Assembly (NCBI RefSeq): GCF_003918875.1
Contig: NW_025765018.1
Span: 1 to 64,000 of the forward strand
Length of the DNA stretch: 64,000 bases
Origin: Haliotis rubra
Taxonomy: Eukaryota
Reading direction: 5' to 3'
Position numbers: made by a program. Within the stretch, counting starts at the first letter, position 1. Every line of letters begins with the position of its first letter. Shown here one piece after another: positions 33,001-48,000 of the stretch.

Positions 33001-36000
33001 AAATAATACGTATTAAGAGTATTTACAATATTAACATAAAATGTTCGCCCTCTACCGGTTGAACATTATTCAAGCGAGCCCCATAGAGTTATGTCCCTTG
33101 GAGTGCATTTTACGAATATCCTATAACGCCTTTGGAGACAGAAATCAGTCCTAAACAAAACATACGCACAACTTGTGATTGAAACCAGTACGGCTAACAC
33201 CGACAATATTTACCGTGTGCGACAGTTTTCGATGTACGGAGTAATTGTTTACATTCCATATATGGCAAGTTTTCTCTGTTTGGAAGCTGTTCGCCTCGAG
33301 ATTTCAATAATCGATTTCAGGAAAGTCGTAAGGAATAAGTAAGTATTATATTGCATGAATAGGAAGCTAAAGTGAGTGCATATGCCCCAATATTTATCAT
33401 ACAGGCGAAACTATTGTCGAAAATGTGTGAAATTGTGTCTTTGAGCAATAAATTGTTGCCGACGATGTGGATGACGCAGACGATGATGCTGTTGATGACA
33501 ATTGTGTAATGCTTACATGTATATGTTTTCTGTGTACAACCGCCATCCCTCTCACTGTACCTCTTGTGACAAATCGTAGCAAAACACATGTTAACGTCAC
33601 ATTGCTGTAGCTGTAGCCCCGACAAGATCCAGAGTTCAAGCACTTCACACCGCACATTTTGACTCCCATGTTATGAAATATTTCCAAGAGATGAGATTTC
33701 ATTCCCACCGTTCTCAGACACATCAGGTAGAGAAAGAACAAGATCGCTGTACCTTTCAGAGCATGCTTACAACACATGATCCTCACACAGCTGCTTCACA
33801 AGCCAGGGTTGGTACTTGGTACAAAGCACATGTGAATCTGTATTATATCACTTTGACCCGTGAAGATCCAGGTTAGAATTGATCTTCAGTAATCTGTGTT
33901 TATCGTAAGAGGCGACTAACGGGATCGGGTGGTCAGGCTCGCTGACTTGGTTGACGAGCCTTGGTTGACTTGGTTGACACATGCAAGTGTATCCCAGTTG
34001 CGTAGATTGATGCTCGTGAGGGTGATCATTGGATTATCTGGTCCCGGTTACGGAATAAATCGACGACTGTCAATTCGGAATCCGTACACTGTACCTAATC
34101 GGGGTATCCAGGTTTAACTGCGGGCAAACTGATGCCTTGCCCTATAAAAGTGAGTATTGCGCGCAGCCATACACACACACGTGCATTCACGTCAAAATAA
34201 ATTGGTACTAATGCCAAATGGGATATTTGGTCAGATTTTCAGAAGCATAATTACTCATAAAGACCTCAGATTATAACTGCCTTAAGAAGTATGTGTATTT
34301 CCAGTGTTTCATATAAGATTACCTCATTATACTAGCTCGTCTGATTACAAATTGCTCCCTTTTAAGCTAATCGTGGATAAATTATGCATTGTGAACGTAT
34401 CATTTCTACAGCTATTTCTTTTAATGAGACAAAGATATGGTAATGTCACTTTTAACCCTTAAGTCCATTATGACCAGCTTAGGTTCTACTCTCCCCATGG
34501 AGTCGAGAACGAAATATCGGGTGCACACTGTCCAATTGTTATGCTGTTTCGGGAATACACAAATGGTGTTGATGGTGATTATTATGATGATTATTTACAG
34601 ATTAAAAATATATGAAGGAAAGCGTCTGGTGACACAGGCACAGTTGGGCGCGTCGTCAGCTCATGGTCCTTGCCGCCTCTACCCGCAGCTCAGACATCGT
34701 CTACTCGAACCCCCCAAGAACCAAGGAGGATTTGAAGTCTCCTCAACACTGCAGCCTGCGGCATTATCCAAGAGTCTCCAAAAGGCTGTATTCCCCCTCG
34801 AGACCAGAGAACAACTTACAGAGTCTGGACCAGACAACCTAGTGATCACAGCATTGATCTACGCAATTAAGATACGATGACATGTGTCAACCAAGTCAGC
34901 GAGCCTGACCACCCGATCCCTTTAGTCGCCTAAATCTTCACGGTTGGGCAAAGTCTTGTACAGTGTCATAACATTTAAATGACATAATCTACATGTCTCT
35001 GTTACATTTTGATGCAAAACCACACACTGACAGATTCATCCTGTCCCACTTCATGCAGGACCGCCGCCATATAGCTGGAATAGCTTAGTGGTTAAAGCGT
35101 TCGCTCGTCACGCCGAAGACCCGGGTTCGATTCCCCACATTGGTATGGAATACTGTAAGGGACATTCTCGCGATCTCGCATTCTCGCGATCTCGAGAATG
35201 TCCCTTACAGTATTCCATACAAATGAGCTTCACACATTGTACCAATGTATGGAATACTGTAGGGACATTCTCGCGATCTCGCATTCTCGCGATCTCGTCC
35301 TTTGGAAACAAGCTAAAATGCCAAAAGTGCGAGAATGCGAGATCGCGAAACTGCGAGATTTGGCCAAATCTCGCATTCTCGCGATCTCGCATTCTCGTGT
35401 TTTGGTACATAGCACTTTTGTCAAAGTCGAGATCGCGAGAATGCGACATTTGTACATGCTGTCAAATCTCGCATTCTCGCAATCTCGACTTGTCAAATAT
35501 GGCCACAAAACACGAAATCGCGAGAACACGAGAATGCGACATTGCATTTTTCTCGCGTTCTCGCGATCTCGCGATCTCGCGTTTTTAGACGCTGTCGGTG
35601 CGCATGCGTAATATCATAAGGTCAAGGCGCATGCGTGTCTTAGTAGCGCTATGGTCATGCTTCTTTCGTGCTTTTCATTTCCCAAGTAGCATTTAGCAAA
35701 ATTATCACATAGCTTGAAAATGCTATGTAAATTTATACACGATGTAGGGTAGTGTATATAAGTCCGCTGCCGTTGTTTCCTACATTGTTTTCCTATGTGC
35801 CTTAAAATCCTCAACGTGTTTAATATAATTTAAGAAACGAAATTGTGAATATGAATGTCAATAAAAGTGAAAACATGAAAGTGTCCGGAAGCTGGATATA
35901 CATTAACGTCAGTGAGTGATAAAATAGTGCTCAAAGCCGCATTAATTCGCAGCTACACCGTCAGTTATACAAATAATCACAGACCAGTGAGTTTCTCCAT

Positions 36001-45000: not shown

Positions 45001-48000
45001 CCAGACAATCCAGTGATCTGCGCGATTGGGAACCTTTATGCACTATATTTATTATGATGACATGTTCATCAGATGTGATTTTATGTTGTATATATCGTGT
45101 ATATTATTGTTATTACAGGGTGTCTTCTTCCACCACGATATGGAAATAAACAGATATCTCACTCATAACCCGTAGTCTCCACTTTATCATGGCTGCCGCA
45201 GGAACACAAATATTATTGGTACAAATGCATTTCTATTTCTTGGAACTTGGAGACGAAAGAATAATGTAAGACAGGGTGTTTTGTAGTCAGGCGGGAGCGG
45301 AAGAAAATCTATTAATTAATTTGTTATGGACTAAACTAGCGAGTATGGTGTCCAATAAAACATCAGACATGCTCATTTTAGCCGACGGCTAGAAATTGGT
45401 CGGTTAGAATTTTGTTTGAATGATTATGCTAGCCGTATATGATATTGCATCATGGAAAAACTCACTGGTCTGTGATTATTTGTATAACTGACGGTATAGC
45501 TGCGAAATGATGCGGCTTTTAGCACTATTTTATCACTCACTGACGTTAATATTTTTTTCCAGCTTCCGGACACTTTCATGTTTTCACTTTTATTGGACAT
45601 TCATATTCACAATTTCGTTTCTTAAATAGAATTTTACATGTTGAGGATTTTTAAGGACATACGAAATTGTAACAACGGGAACGGACTTATATACTCTACC
45701 CTTGTCATCCTGTATGTAAATTACATGATAGCATTTTCAAGCTATGTGATAAGTTTGCTAAATGCTAGTTGGGAAGTGAAAAGCATGAAAGAAGCATGAC
45801 CACAGCACTACTTAGATACGCATGCGCCTTGACCTTATGATATTACGCATGCGCACCGACAGCGTCTAAAACGCGAGATCGCGAGAACGCGAGAAAATGC
45901 AATGTCGCATTCTCGCGTTCTCGCGATTTCGTGTTTTTATGGCCATATCTGGCAAGTCGAGATAGCGAGAATGCGAGATTTGACAGCATGTACAAATGTC
46001 GCAATCTCGCGATCTCGACTTTTGACAAAAAGTGCTATGTACCAAAAACACGAGAATGCGAGATCGCGAGAACGCGAGATTTTGGCCAAATCTCGCGTTC
46101 TCGCGATCTCGCATTCTCTACTGGCATTTTTAGCTTGTTTCGAAGGTCGAGATCGCGAGAATGCGAGATCGCGAGAATGTCCCTTACAGTATTCCATACA
46201 TTTGTGGTGTCCACCGCCGTGATATTGCTGGAATATTGCTAAAGGCGGCGTAAAACCATACTCACTCACTCACTGCGCACGTATACAACACTGACGCATT
46301 ACTTCAGCTTGACCACCAACATTGCTAATATCAACACAACAGACGTGATGTAAATGCTTACAAAACATTTATTAAAACTCGAAAAATACAATTATATGAT
46401 TTTTTCTCTGCAATTATTAGGGAAACTCACTATCATATAACCTTCTATTATAATAATATTCAAACTCAATTACAATACACAGCCCCAAACATAAACAAAC
46501 AATATCTCACCTATAAATCAGAAAGCCTTGTAAAAATACATCCCTATCTATGCAAAATTTGCAATAAAACGTTTGTAAACATTTGCCTACCTGGTAAATG
46601 GTATATTTATTTCGGTTTAGAATGGGAAATATTCGCAAGAAAACGGCTACGCGTTCGGCTTCAAATGAAATTAAGAGACTATCAATTCGGTGTAACATTC
46701 ATCTAATTTCAAAACACAGTACGTTTATCTCCTAAGTAGAATCTAGCATGCTCTTTTCACCACGATTTCAAAGAAAATAACACATAACTCTTTGCTGGAA
46801 ACAATCAAGACACAGGTAAAGCTTTCACAGTTAACATTTGGAGGGCATTTCCAAATTATAAGCATCAGTAGCTCACAAAGGCCAAATGCAATTCCGTATT
46901 TCTCTGGAAACATATGCTCTTCGCCTTTTTCGTGCGAACAGTTGGGTAGTATTGGCATGCAGGCTACACTCATAAAACCAGGTACCATCGCTATATATTA
47001 GTGGTTTATAAAGACTACCACGGTTCGCGCGCATCAGACACCGAGACCCAGTCTGTATAAAGACCTGCTAATAATATAGTTCGAACCGTTCCCCGCCTCT
47101 GCTTAAACGGAGATTTCTTATAAATATCAGTGGGGGCGTCATCTTTATTTATACAACTAAAACAACAAGAAGCCTGTCCCCATACTTCAGTATCATAACG
47201 GGACGCCTCCGAGCGACGGTCAGATCGATTCAGTTTCGGATACTTCTGTAAAACCTAGAAGTTATTAAAGCTCCATTAAGAAAACGATAAACTTTGTATT
47301 ATCTACTTTGATGAAGGAAAGTCACATATGTCTAGTTAAAGTATTAGTGATTACCATACTACTCTCAAACTAGCTTGGTTATGAGGTAAACCTCTAATTA
47401 TTTATTAGCAGCTGAAAATAGTTGAGTTGATATTATATGATAAATATAAAACACACGGCCATGCCACGGCTCTGTATTAATATACATGTATTATCTTTTA
47501 AGCATCATGTTTGTTTTATGGCAGCGCGTGATCGGTATAATGAAACTCTCAAAAACTGTTTAGTTGTATTGTTTTGTATTGTTTGTGTTCGTTGTGTAAC
47601 GTCACACAATATCCCAGCTATATGGCGGCGGTTTGTAAATTGTCGAGTCTGGACCAGACAACCCAGTGATCAACAGCATGAATGGTGTTTTCTGTCACAA
47701 TGTACTGCAACGTGTTTCAGGGAAAGAGGATGGACTATTCAGCCTCAAACAACAAATCAGAGGTGGCATCGTCAACTTCAACCGTCTACATTACAGGCAA
47801 ACTCACTGACGCTAGCTTTAAAACTCAGGTCACAGTTCCAAATTGGCACAGAAGTGAACACACGTCACAGTTCCGCACACGGACACAGATGTCAACACAC
47901 ATGTCATAGGTCCACACGGACACAGATGTCAACACGCACGTAACAGCTCCATTCCGACACAGACGGCAACACACGCGTCAATGTTGCACACTGACACAGG

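What the first reader, a model, noticed from the sequence alone, without database searches (positions are those of the whole stretch)
35247..46199. Uncharacterised ~11-kb foldback element with >3-kb arms, 4-bp AT-rich TSD and satellite-bearing arms
Seen: very long inverted arms with modular GCGAGA subrepeats at the outer ends, ~2 kb of complex sequence in each arm, and hairpin satellites at the inner ends. G...C termini, TSD ATTT/ATTG, no transposase. Established: 4-bp AWWT-type TSDs are described for Sola1, while classic foldbacks (FB/MULE, Galileo/P) have 7-11 bp TSDs. Inference: a foldback-type derivative of a 4-bp-TSD superfamily, possibly Sola, that may be undescribed and could promote rearrangement next to the NLR-like cluster.
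Basis: partly seen in the sequence, partly recalled or inferred. Interest (0 to 1): 0.65.

Follow-up and report, generated by a model that had tools for sequence, protein, structure and literature searches.

The report
Snail foldback transposon with swapped duplications
An 11-kb non-coding "foldback" jumping gene and a 78-bp miniature of it sit side by side inside a short repeat of a mollusc genome, and the scrap of DNA between them has been flipped, which shows that such elements rearrange their surroundings; the element type itself is an ordinary one.

Summary
The structure is real. Window 35247-46199 (10,953 bp) has inverted arms of about 3.4 and 3.2 kb. They match in three collinear blocks at 90-95% substitution identity and enclose a 4.3-kb unique centre. 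Each arm has an outer domain of hairpin modules built from the CGCGAGA octamer motif, then complex sequence, then a 110-118-bp hairpin satellite. No transposase remnant was found.

Both elements lie in one tRNA-derived SINE. Other SINE copies in the window show that the 26-bp spacer is the SINE's own sequence turned round. ATTG and ATTT are two separate target duplications, and the partner of each is inverted. These "exchanged TSDs" point to an inversion between two neighbouring copies, or to a hybrid-element insertion.

The duplication is 4 bp at minimum. A 6-bp duplication is at least as likely, 5 or 7 bp is possible, and 8 bp or more is excluded.

The superfamily is unresolved: Sola is neither supported nor excluded. 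No eukaryotic genome or repeat library was available, so copy number, an autonomous partner and catalogue status remain unchecked.

Verdict: a non-autonomous foldback DNA transposon, modestly interesting.

The parts
35074..35142 (+). Left flank: the tRNA-like head of the SINE copy that received the insertions
   Evidence: Rfam tRNA match at 35074-35145, 29.6 bits against a gathering score of 29. It aligns with other SINE copies at 21179-21335, 23055-23205 and 30040-30195. ARAGORN finds no tRNA gene, which fits a degenerate SINE head.
35139..35142 (+). Target duplication 1, direct copy (ATTG core)
   Evidence: In alignment A1 the left flank ends in the same columns where the reverse-complemented spacer begins.
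35143..35220 (.). 78-bp mini-foldback (M): 52 nt of one end joined to 26 nt of the inverted end
   Evidence: Both of its ends match the 21-nt terminus exactly. Its 52 + 26 nt are identical to the right end of the large element. As single-stranded DNA it folds at -34.6 kcal/mol, z -15.0.
35221..35246 (-). 26-bp SINE segment in inverted orientation. It carries the inverted partner of duplication 2 (35221-35224) and of duplication 1 (35243-35246).
   Evidence: 26/26 identity to the minus strand of SINE copy 23111-23136. Its position between the left and right flanks is shown in alignment A1.
35247..46199 (.). Large foldback element (L), 10,953 bp
35247..35583 (+). Left outer domain: the terminal 51 nt plus three hairpin modules built of octamer arrays
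   Evidence: Sequence and arm alignment. Modules fold at -39.4 kcal/mol (z -11.5) and -26.4 kcal/mol (z -8.9). The CGAGA cores lie in alternating orientation blocks.
35584..37798 (+). Left arm, complex part. It includes about 700 bp absent from the right arm (36428-37129) and a SINE fragment (about 36985-37182).
37799..38690 (+). Left inner satellite: about 117-bp hairpin units, 7.8 copies
   Evidence: One unit folds at -36.6 kcal/mol, z -7.8. The units are homologous to the outer hairpin modules: local scores 99 and 103, against a maximum of 30 in 200 shuffles.
38701..42972 (.). Unique non-coding centre (33-40% G+C) with at least one nested repeat (39352-39643)
   Evidence: No inverted homology between its halves. 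Only 7 short inverted pairs and no direct-repeat family. No Pfam hit. Repeat match to 17255-16960. Composition.
42977..43768 (-). Right inner satellite: 110-118-bp units, 6.8 copies
43769..45869 (-). Right arm, complex part. It includes about 610 bp absent from the left arm (44169-44779, holding a repeat at 44531-44764) and the same SINE fragment (44922-45018).
45870..46199 (-). Right outer domain and terminus
46200..46203 (+). Target duplication 2, direct copy (ATTT core)
   Evidence: In alignment A1 the right flank starts in the columns where the reverse-complemented spacer ends.
46200..46275 (+). Right flank: the 3' part of the same SINE copy
   Evidence: 92-93% identity to SINE copies at 21268-21341, 23132-23201 and 30128-30193; alignment A1.

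Best explanation
L (35247-46199) is a non-autonomous, foldback-type cut-and-paste DNA transposon of a mollusc, probably an abalone-like gastropod. M (35143-35220) is a 78-bp miniature of the same family.

Shown:
- Both interrupt one tRNA-derived SINE copy, at two similar target sites 22 bp apart.
- Each site is duplicated (cores ATTG and ATTT).
- The SINE piece between the elements is inverted, so each duplication has one direct copy and one inverted copy.

Inferred, order of events. Two routes give this arrangement:
(a) Two copies inserted 18 bp apart. Homologous recombination between inverted homologous parts then flipped what lay between them. For example, the mini could have recombined with the far arm of L, about 11 kb away.
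(b) A single copy underwent a hybrid-element (sister-chromatid) insertion into the neighbouring site. That gives two inverted copies around an inverted spacer. One copy then collapsed to its two ends, by hairpin deletion or by gap repair after excision.

Inferred, mobility:
- A transposase encoded elsewhere binds the arrays of the octamer (consensus about GCGAGAWC, 147 CGAGA cores) and the terminal 50 or so nt.
- That terminal stretch has no substitution among the four ends, while the arms differ by 8.4% overall.
- The inner satellites arose by tandem amplification of the outer hairpin modules.

The superfamily is unresolved. The duplication is 4 to 7 bp; the symmetric solutions are 4 or 6 bp.
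For: - Arms and domains.
- Motif confined to the element, 78 of 79 heptamers; 147 cores in alternating orientation blocks.
- Same 21-nt terminus at 3 ends exactly, against 0.01 expected, and at the fourth end with one deletion.
- The flanks are one SINE. The left flank matches 21209-21253. The right flank matches 21268-21341, 23132-23201 and 30128-30193. The spacer matches 23136-23111 on the opposite strand, 26/26.
- Alignment A1 places the left flank, the reverse-complemented spacer and the right flank end to end, with 4-column overlaps at ATTG and ATTT.
- No termini at the inner ends of the arms and no coding remnant.
- Hairpin modules fold far better than shuffles, z -7.8 to -15.
- Satellite units align to the outer modules, scores 99 and 103 against a shuffle maximum of 30.
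- Terminal 51 nt: 0 substitutions, against 142/1681 arm-wide, P 0.011.
- Both arms hold the same SINE fragment at the homologous place, so the arms share one origin.
- Exchanged duplications as the signature of ectopic recombination or hybrid-element insertion: PMC2775673, passages.
- Arm identity near 91%, not 100%, argues against an assembly foldback artefact.
Against: - Only two copies, L and M, could be examined, and both are at one locus.
- No eukaryotic genome or repeat library was available. Multi-copy status, an autonomous partner and a true empty site are therefore not shown.
- The empty site is inferred from paralogous SINE copies that are 82-92% identical, not from an orthologous allele.
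- The two routes to the inversion cannot be told apart. M keeps only 52 + 26 nt, and these are identical in all ends.
- Duplication length is ambiguous. The 4-bp reading needs 8 further bases to agree by chance (about 1.5e-5) or a target preference that mirrors the element's ends.
- The role of the octamers as binding sites is by analogy only (Galileo THAP sites, PMC3688188, abstract in a search listing).
- A search of 5.8 billion predicted proteins with the satellite's 224-aa frame found nothing, so no trace of relatives elsewhere was obtained.
Confidence: 0.72

Rival explanations
1. The element is specifically a Sola1-derived foldback. A Sola1 transposase would make 4-bp AWWT-type duplications and mobilise it.
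For: The minimal duplications are 4 bp. ATTT fits the AWWT/AWDT preference reported as a Sola1 hallmark (PMC3845634, passages and Table 1). Sola elements exist in molluscs (PMC10294476, passages).
Against: - ATTG does not fit AWWT or AWDT.
- The 4-bp length is the least likely reading of the junctions unless a target preference is assumed.
- The only Sola1 terminus I could read (insect Sola1_NA, Table 1 of PMC3845634) shares no more than the first base with this one.
- In PMC10294476 Sola appeared restricted to bivalves among the molluscs analysed, whereas the nearest proteins to this window's genes are from Haliotis, a gastropod.
- Ginger1, Ginger2 and AcademX also give 4-bp duplications (PMC10045372).
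- The defining paper (Bao et al. 2009) is not held.
Confidence: 0.1
2. The duplication is 6 bp (CATTGG and CATTTG) and the true ends are TATGG...CCATA. The element would then belong to a superfamily with 6-bp or variable-length duplications, not to a 4-bp one.
For: At all four junctions at least one more base on each side continues the SINE sequence. The 6-bp reading needs 4 chance agreements, where the 4-bp reading needs 8. The IS256/MuDR group is reported to give 4 to 10 bp (PMC10045372, passages), and most classified foldbacks are assigned to Mutator (PMC4079207, passages).
Against: Even at 6 bp, four extra agreeing bases remain (2, 1, 1, 0). This suggests a target preference that could equally rescue the 4-bp reading. 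Two sites are too few to decide. Dada, the 6-7 bp superfamily I could read about, has no terminal inverted repeats (PMC3706591, passages), unlike this element.
Confidence: 0.4
3. The arms are two independent one-armed elements in opposite orientation, enclosing 4.3 kb of host DNA (a composite), each with its own ends and duplications.
For: The arms differ by 8-10%, as two separate copies might. The centre has no feature that ties it to the arms.
Against: - No copy of the 21-nt terminus lies at or near the inner ends, even at up to 3 mismatches.
- The sequence outside the block is one continuous SINE. The centre therefore arrived with the arms and is not resident host DNA.
- The inverted homology stops at satellites that end in different phases.
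Confidence: 0.04
4. It is not a mobile element. It would be a palindromic duplication made by break repair, or an assembly artefact of long-read foldback chimeras.
For: Long palindromes do arise by both routes (general knowledge, not tested here).
Against: - The arms are 90-95% identical with arm-specific indels of 600-700 bp, not near-identical.
- The boundaries inside a SINE are precise and carry duplicated target bases.
- A second, miniature copy has identical ends.
- The window holds no N.
Confidence: 0.02

Closest known systems
Tetris, foldback transposon of Drosophila virilis, with its MITE partner DAIBAM (PMC4079207, abstract and passages read)
   Same: Terminal inverted repeats with an outer domain, internal tandem repeats and an inner domain. 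A non-coding middle of variable content. No autonomous copy known. The ends are shared with a miniature element. The tandem repeats in the arms can seed satellite DNA.
   Different: Tetris duplicates 8-10 bp and is tentatively placed in Mutator; here 8 bp or more is excluded at one site. The tandem unit is about 220 bp there and 110-118 bp here. Here the units are themselves hairpins derived from the outer modules. The host is an insect there and a mollusc here.
Galileo (P superfamily) of Drosophila buzzatii and relatives (PMC2775673 passages; PMC3688188, PMC3573991 and PMC4168063 abstracts in listings)
   Same: Long, internally repetitive inverted repeats. Many copies are non-coding. Inversions are flanked by copies whose target duplications are exchanged and inverted. 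The authors discuss the same two mechanisms: ectopic recombination and hybrid-element insertion.
   Different: Galileo makes 7-bp duplications with consensus GTAGTAC and has a known THAP-bearing transposase. Here 7 bp is possible only with ends offset by one base, the duplicated sequences differ, and no transposase is known. The inversion here is 26 bp, not megabases.
Sola1 and its MITEs (PMC3845634, passages and Table 1)
   Same: A possible 4-bp A/T-rich duplication. One of the two sites (ATTT) fits AWWT. The termini start with G.
   Different: The second site (ATTG) does not fit. The terminus sequence is unrelated to the one printed there. No foldback architecture is reported in what I read. 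Membership cannot be tested without a transposase or a repeat library.
Tandem-repeat-containing MITEs and satellite-carrying mobile elements of bivalves: DTC84 in Donax (PMC3879986) and Helentron-borne satellites in Crassostrea (PMC7492417). Only the abstracts in a search listing were seen.
   Same: Mollusc mobile elements that carry short arrays of satellite-like repeats inside non-autonomous elements.
   Different: Going by their abstracts, those are small MITEs with a central array, or rolling-circle elements. This is an 11-kb foldback with arrays in both inverted arms and with target duplications.

Membership tests
Foldback-type non-autonomous class II element (structural class) | Long terminal inverted repeats with internal subrepeats, around a non-coding middle | tested here: met
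Foldback-type non-autonomous class II element (structural class) | Insertion with a flanking target-site duplication | tested here: met
   Two duplicated cores, shown against paralogous SINE copies. The partners are inverted because of a later or concurrent inversion.
Foldback-type non-autonomous class II element (structural class) | Repeated family: several copies with the same ends at different loci | tested here: inconclusive
   Two copies (L and M) share the ends, but they sit 26 bp apart. No other copy lies in the 64-kb window. No genome was available.
Sola1 | Sola1-type DDE transposase in autonomous copies with the same ends | not testable with these tools
   The element has no ORF with any Pfam signal. 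No eukaryotic genome or Repbase/Dfam is on hand.
Sola1 | 4-bp duplication with AWWT/AWDT preference (PMC3845634) | tested here: inconclusive
   Length is 4-7 bp. ATTT fits and ATTG does not: 1 of 2 sites.
Sola1 | Termini alignable to a known member over positions 1-11 with at most 1 mismatch (the Repbase rule quoted in PMC4455052) | tested here: not met
   Compared by eye with the single Sola1_NA terminus printed in PMC3845634 Table 1: only the first base agrees. The full library could not be searched, so this holds for that one member only.
piggyBac / Kolobok | TTAA-specific 4-bp duplication (PMC9587614 and PMC10045372, passages) | tested here: not met
   The duplicated cores are ATTG and ATTT.
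Mutator-type foldbacks (FB, Tetris and the like) | Duplication of 8-10 bp (Tetris 8-10 bp, PMC4079207) | tested here: not met
   At site 2 the flanks can share at most 7 bases. PMC10045372 gives 4-10 bp for the wider IS256/MuDR group, so distant kinship is not excluded.
P superfamily (Galileo) | 7-bp duplication (8 bp in some, recalled); Galileo consensus GTAGTAC (PMC2775673) | tested here: inconclusive
   Seven bp is possible at both sites only if the two ends are offset by one base. The sequences would be CATTGGT and CATTTGT, unlike the Galileo consensus.
Dada | 6-7 bp duplication, insertion at one fixed site in tRNA or snRNA genes, no terminal inverted repeats (PMC3706591) | tested here: not met
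   This element has perfect terminal inverted repeats. The insertions are at the 3' edge of, and beyond, a tRNA-like SINE head, and at two different sites.

The most novel reading that the evidence does not exclude
This is an uncatalogued mollusc foldback family. Its short target duplication (4 or 6 bp) would place its unknown transposase outside the Mutator and P superfamilies, which hold all the classified foldbacks I could read about. It would then be an independent origin of the foldback architecture. It was caught with a miniature derivative and an exchanged-duplication micro-inversion, inside a tandemly duplicated cluster of STAND-NTPase/ankyrin (NLR-like) genes.
Probability: 0.3. Interest if true: 0.5.

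Novelty: new member of a known kind. Interest (0 to 1): 0.3.

Why it matters
Foldback elements are classic drivers of inversions and deletions. They are poorly described in molluscs.

This locus gives a clean small-scale record of that activity: two copies in one SINE, with the piece between them flipped and the target duplications exchanged. This is the signature used to prove that Galileo generated inversions in Drosophila.

The locus also shows, within one element, how the hairpin modules of a transposon end can be amplified into a satellite-like array.

The element lies between two copies of a recently duplicated NLR-like gene. If the family is abundant, it could contribute to the turnover of such clusters.

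None of this is unexpected for a specialist. The value is mainly as a well-resolved example and as a lead to an unclassified transposase.

Tried and rejected
1. One global MAFFT alignment of the arms broke down in the middle because of arm-specific indels. I used the blastn blocks and block-wise alignments instead.

2. Dada. I considered it because the insertions lie at a tRNA-like SINE head and 6-7 bp fits. I rejected it because Dada has no terminal inverted repeats and uses one fixed site (PMC3706591).

3. The recalled vertebrate promoter palindrome TCTCGCGAGA as the meaning of the motif. It is absent, with 0 matches at up to 1 mismatch.

4. My guess that ORF 27529-28161(-) was a pogo-type DDE remnant, and hence a possible partner. 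It has no Pfam hit at E 0.001 or better.

5. A search of the protein collection with the 224-aa satellite frame, hoping for mis-predicted proteins from related elements. None of 8000 scored candidates passed. This says little, because such repeats are rarely annotated as proteins.

6. Papers that are not held:
- Bao et al. 2009, which defines Sola.
- The AcademH paper.
So Sola2, Sola3 and AcademX termini were not seen.

7. The last two literature searches were unproductive.
- In one search, none of the 10 listed papers (of 1,196 that held at least 3 of the 5 terms) contains "foldback".
- One search was swamped by papers on the ginger plant.
I therefore cannot claim that no gastropod foldback is in print.

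8. The genome contigs, phage, plasmid and E. coli collections were not used. They hold no eukaryotic DNA.

10. Supplements are closed. They include Fig. S3 of PMC3845634 and the curated mollusc TE library of PMC10294476, and they might hold termini to compare.

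
Full report
**1. What is there**

The window has no N. Minus-strand blastn of 33000-48500 against itself gives three collinear inverted blocks:
- 35244-36427 with 46202-45029 (87.3% over 1224 columns, gaps counted)
- 37196-37349 with 44933-44780 (95.5% over 154)
- 37389-38600 with 44168-42973 (87.4% over 1238)

The repeat finder lists 160 inverted pairs in the same region. Counting substitutions only, the blocks are 1040/1136, 147/154 and 352/391 identical, about 8.4% divergence overall.

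The left arm has about 700 bp that the right arm lacks (36428-37129). The right arm has about 610 bp that the left lacks (44169-44779), including a dispersed repeat at 44531-44764. Both arms carry the same SINE fragment at the homologous place: left 37130-37349 aligns continuously with right 45018-44780. The arms are therefore copies of one ancestral arm that already held that fragment.

The centre, 38701-42972, shows no inverted homology and only seven short inverted pairs. It has one dispersed repeat (39352-39643) and 33-40% G+C.

**2. Domains of the arms**

Outer domain. The outer 340 bp or so consists of the terminus followed by hairpin modules. The building block is an octamer around CGAGA, with consensus about GCGAGAWC. 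There are 147 CGAGA cores in the element, arranged in runs of two to four that alternate in orientation. Of the 79 exact CGCGAGA/TCTCGCG heptamers in the 64-kb window, 78 are inside 35143-46199. As single-stranded DNA the modules fold at -39.4 and -26.4 kcal/mol (z -11.5 and -8.9; 0 of 200 shuffles as good).

Inner domain. The inner ends of the arms are satellites:
- 37799-38686: period 117, 7.8 copies, 86% matches
- 42977-43725: period 110, 6.8 copies; TRF also reports 43266-43768 with period 118 and 4.3 copies

A single unit is itself a hairpin (-36.6 kcal/mol, z -7.8). Two successive units align with two successive outer modules, with local scores of 99 and 103 against a mean of 17 and a maximum of 30 in 200 shuffles. 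The satellites are therefore amplified outer modules. They end in different phases at the two inner borders.

**3. No coding capacity**

There are 36 stop-to-stop frames of 70 aa or more. The longest (224 and 203 aa) are translations of the satellite. I took 89 frames of 40 aa or more from the complex parts of both arms and from the centre. None reached a Pfam cut-off, and the best was E 0.0033 at 17.9 bits against a cut-off of 25. Frames broken by many frameshifts would escape this test.

**4. A second, miniature copy**

The 21-nt terminus occurs exactly at 35143 (+), 35220 (-) and 46199 (-). That is 3 matches at up to 3 mismatches, against 0.01 expected. The left end of the large element, at 35247, has the same sequence with one base deleted.

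So 35143-35220 is a 78-bp mini-foldback (M). It consists of 52 nt of one end joined to 26 nt of the inverted end, and both parts are identical to the right end of the large element (L). It folds at -34.6 kcal/mol, z -15.0.

**5. The flanks and the true target duplications**

The sequence left of M and right of L belongs to one tRNA-derived SINE. Rfam's tRNA model matches 35074-35145 at 29.6 bits, with a gathering score of 29. ARAGORN calls no gene.

Other copies of this SINE lie at 21179-21335, 23055-23205 and 30040-30195, with more diverged ones at 20530-20650 and 51840-51960. Against them:
- The left flank matches the SINE up to the insertion (35101-35145 with 21209-21253).
- The right flank matches from the insertion onward (46199-46272 with 21268-21341, 46199-46268 with 23132-23201, and 46199-46264 with 30128-30193).
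- The 26 bp between M and L (35221-35246) matches 23136-23111 on the opposite strand, 26 of 26.

In alignment A1 the left flank, the reverse complement of the spacer and the right flank tile the SINE end to end. They overlap by four columns at each joint: ATTG at the first and ATTT at the second.

There are therefore two target sites, 22 bp apart, and each is duplicated:
- ATTG lies at 35139-35142, with its inverted partner at 35243-35246.
- ATTT lies at 46200-46203, with its inverted partner at 35221-35224.

On the + strand the bases left of 35247 read CAAT, which is not a direct repeat of ATTT.

**6. Length of the duplication**

At each of the four junctions the element's own end bases happen to continue the SINE sequence. 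This runs for three bases at 35142|35143, two at 35246|35247, two at 35220|35221 and one at 46199|46200 (read).

The possible solutions are:
- 4 bp, if the ends are G...C
- 6 bp (CATTGG and CATTTG), if the outermost base pair belongs to the target
- 5 or 7 bp, with ends offset by one base
- 8 bp or more is impossible at the second site

The 4-bp reading requires eight further bases to agree by chance (about 1.5e-5), or a target preference that mirrors the ends. The 6-bp reading requires four. With two sites I cannot decide, and I rate 6 bp at least as likely as 4 bp. The two sites resemble each other: 7 of the 10 bases around the cores are the same. This suggests sequence-preferring integration.

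**7. How the arrangement arose**

Each duplication has one direct and one inverted member, on either side of an inverted segment. This is the "exchanged TSD" pattern that Delprat et al. used for the Galileo-generated inversion 2z3. They state that it is expected from two mechanisms (PMC2775673, passages):
- ectopic recombination between two oppositely oriented copies
- hybrid-element insertion, in which the ends of copies on sister chromatids or homologous chromosomes insert together

Maize Ac offers a parallel: alternative (sister-chromatid) transposition produces inverted duplications flanked by target duplications (bioRxiv 10.1101/2020.01.07.897926, passages).

Applied here, either route works:
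- Route 1. Two copies inserted 18 bp apart and later recombined. Foldbacks present homology in both orientations, so the exchange could have been between M and the far arm of L, 11 kb away.
- Route 2. One copy made a hybrid insertion into the neighbouring site, and one of the resulting twins collapsed to its ends.

I cannot separate these routes. M retains only 78 nt, and those are identical in all ends.

One further inference follows. The terminal 51 nt show no substitution between the arms, although the arms differ by 8.4% overall (P 0.011). M is identical to the right end over all 78 nt. So either the ends are conserved for transposition and the arms were already diverged when L inserted, or L is a chimera of two diverged copies, as ectopic recombination predicts.

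**8. Host and surroundings**

ORF 8634-11483 (-) carries nSTAND3 and ankyrin domains. Its nearest feature-space clusters are molluscan. Of 24 sequence relatives, 13 are named Haliotis, and the best is 40% identical. The host is therefore a mollusc, probably a gastropod related to abalones.

The window is a tandem segmental duplication. Positions 22-16241 match 47356-64000 at 79-98% identity by segment, 92-97% over the gene segments. L lies in the part whose twin would be beyond the window. Whether the element took part in that duplication cannot be told.

**9. Comparison with known families**

By architecture the closest are Tetris and Galileo.
- Tetris has arms with an outer domain, internal tandem repeats and an inner domain. 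It has a non-coding middle, shares its ends with a MITE and duplicates 8-10 bp (PMC4079207).
- Galileo has long repetitive arms, 7-bp duplications and exchanged duplications at inversions (PMC2775673).

That paper on Tetris also notes that the foldback form may evolve independently in different lineages.

Superfamily cannot be assigned:
- TTAA users (piggyBac, Kolobok) are excluded.
- Mutator-type 8-10 bp is excluded at one site.
- Dada is excluded by its lack of inverted ends.
- P needs offset ends.
- Sola1 fits at one of two sites only, and not in the one terminus I could read.
- Ginger1, Ginger2 and AcademX also make 4-bp duplications.

Repbase's own rule for non-autonomous elements needs a library comparison: the same duplication length plus 11 matching terminal bases (PMC4455052). 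I could not run that comparison.

**10. Verdict**

The interpretation as a foldback-type non-autonomous transposon holds. The 4-bp duplication is only a lower bound and was derived from a wrong pairing, and the Sola link is undecided.

What this second look adds:
- the mini element
- the reconstruction of the target from paralogous SINE copies
- the exchanged duplications around a 26-bp inversion
- the derivation of the satellites from the terminal hairpin modules

Left open for lack of a eukaryotic genome or repeat library: copy number, an autonomous partner, catalogue status and the exact duplication length.

Noticed in passing
window 22-16241 and 47356-64000: Tandem segmental duplication with a period of about 47.3 kb. 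Identity is 79-98% by segment, 92-97% over the gene segments. Each copy carries a large gene with nSTAND3 NTPase and many ankyrin repeats on the minus strand (6244-11486 and 52128-58382), preceded by a C/A-rich minisatellite. The alignment starts at the window edge, so the true boundary of the duplication is unknown.
   Followed up: partly
window 500-4300 and 47800-49500: Long, degenerate C/A-rich tandem arrays with periods of 37, 74 and 111 bp and strong GC and AT skew. They are open in one frame for up to 353 aa, which is probably meaningless.
   Followed up: no
window 21179-21335, 23055-23205, 30040-30195, 20530-20650(-), 51840-51960(-), 35072-35142 with 46200-46275: At least six copies of one tRNA-derived SINE within 64 kb. 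Further fragments lie inside both arms of the foldback and in its centre. The family looks very abundant in this genome.
   Followed up: partly
window 59997-60953 (-) and 12697-13167 (-): A repetitive open frame with a 10-aa unit (about THQQPASSGV or THQQPASSRV) lies upstream of each nSTAND3-ankyrin gene copy, and the array is expanded in the second copy. The second copy (59997-60950) has no Pfam hit at E 0.001 or better; the first was not scanned. It may be an exon of the same gene. No spliced model was attempted.
   Followed up: no
window 26751-28161 (-): Two adjoining open frames of 255 and 211 aa, the first rich in charged residues. I first took them for a transposase remnant, but neither has a Pfam hit at E 0.001 or better.
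   Followed up: partly
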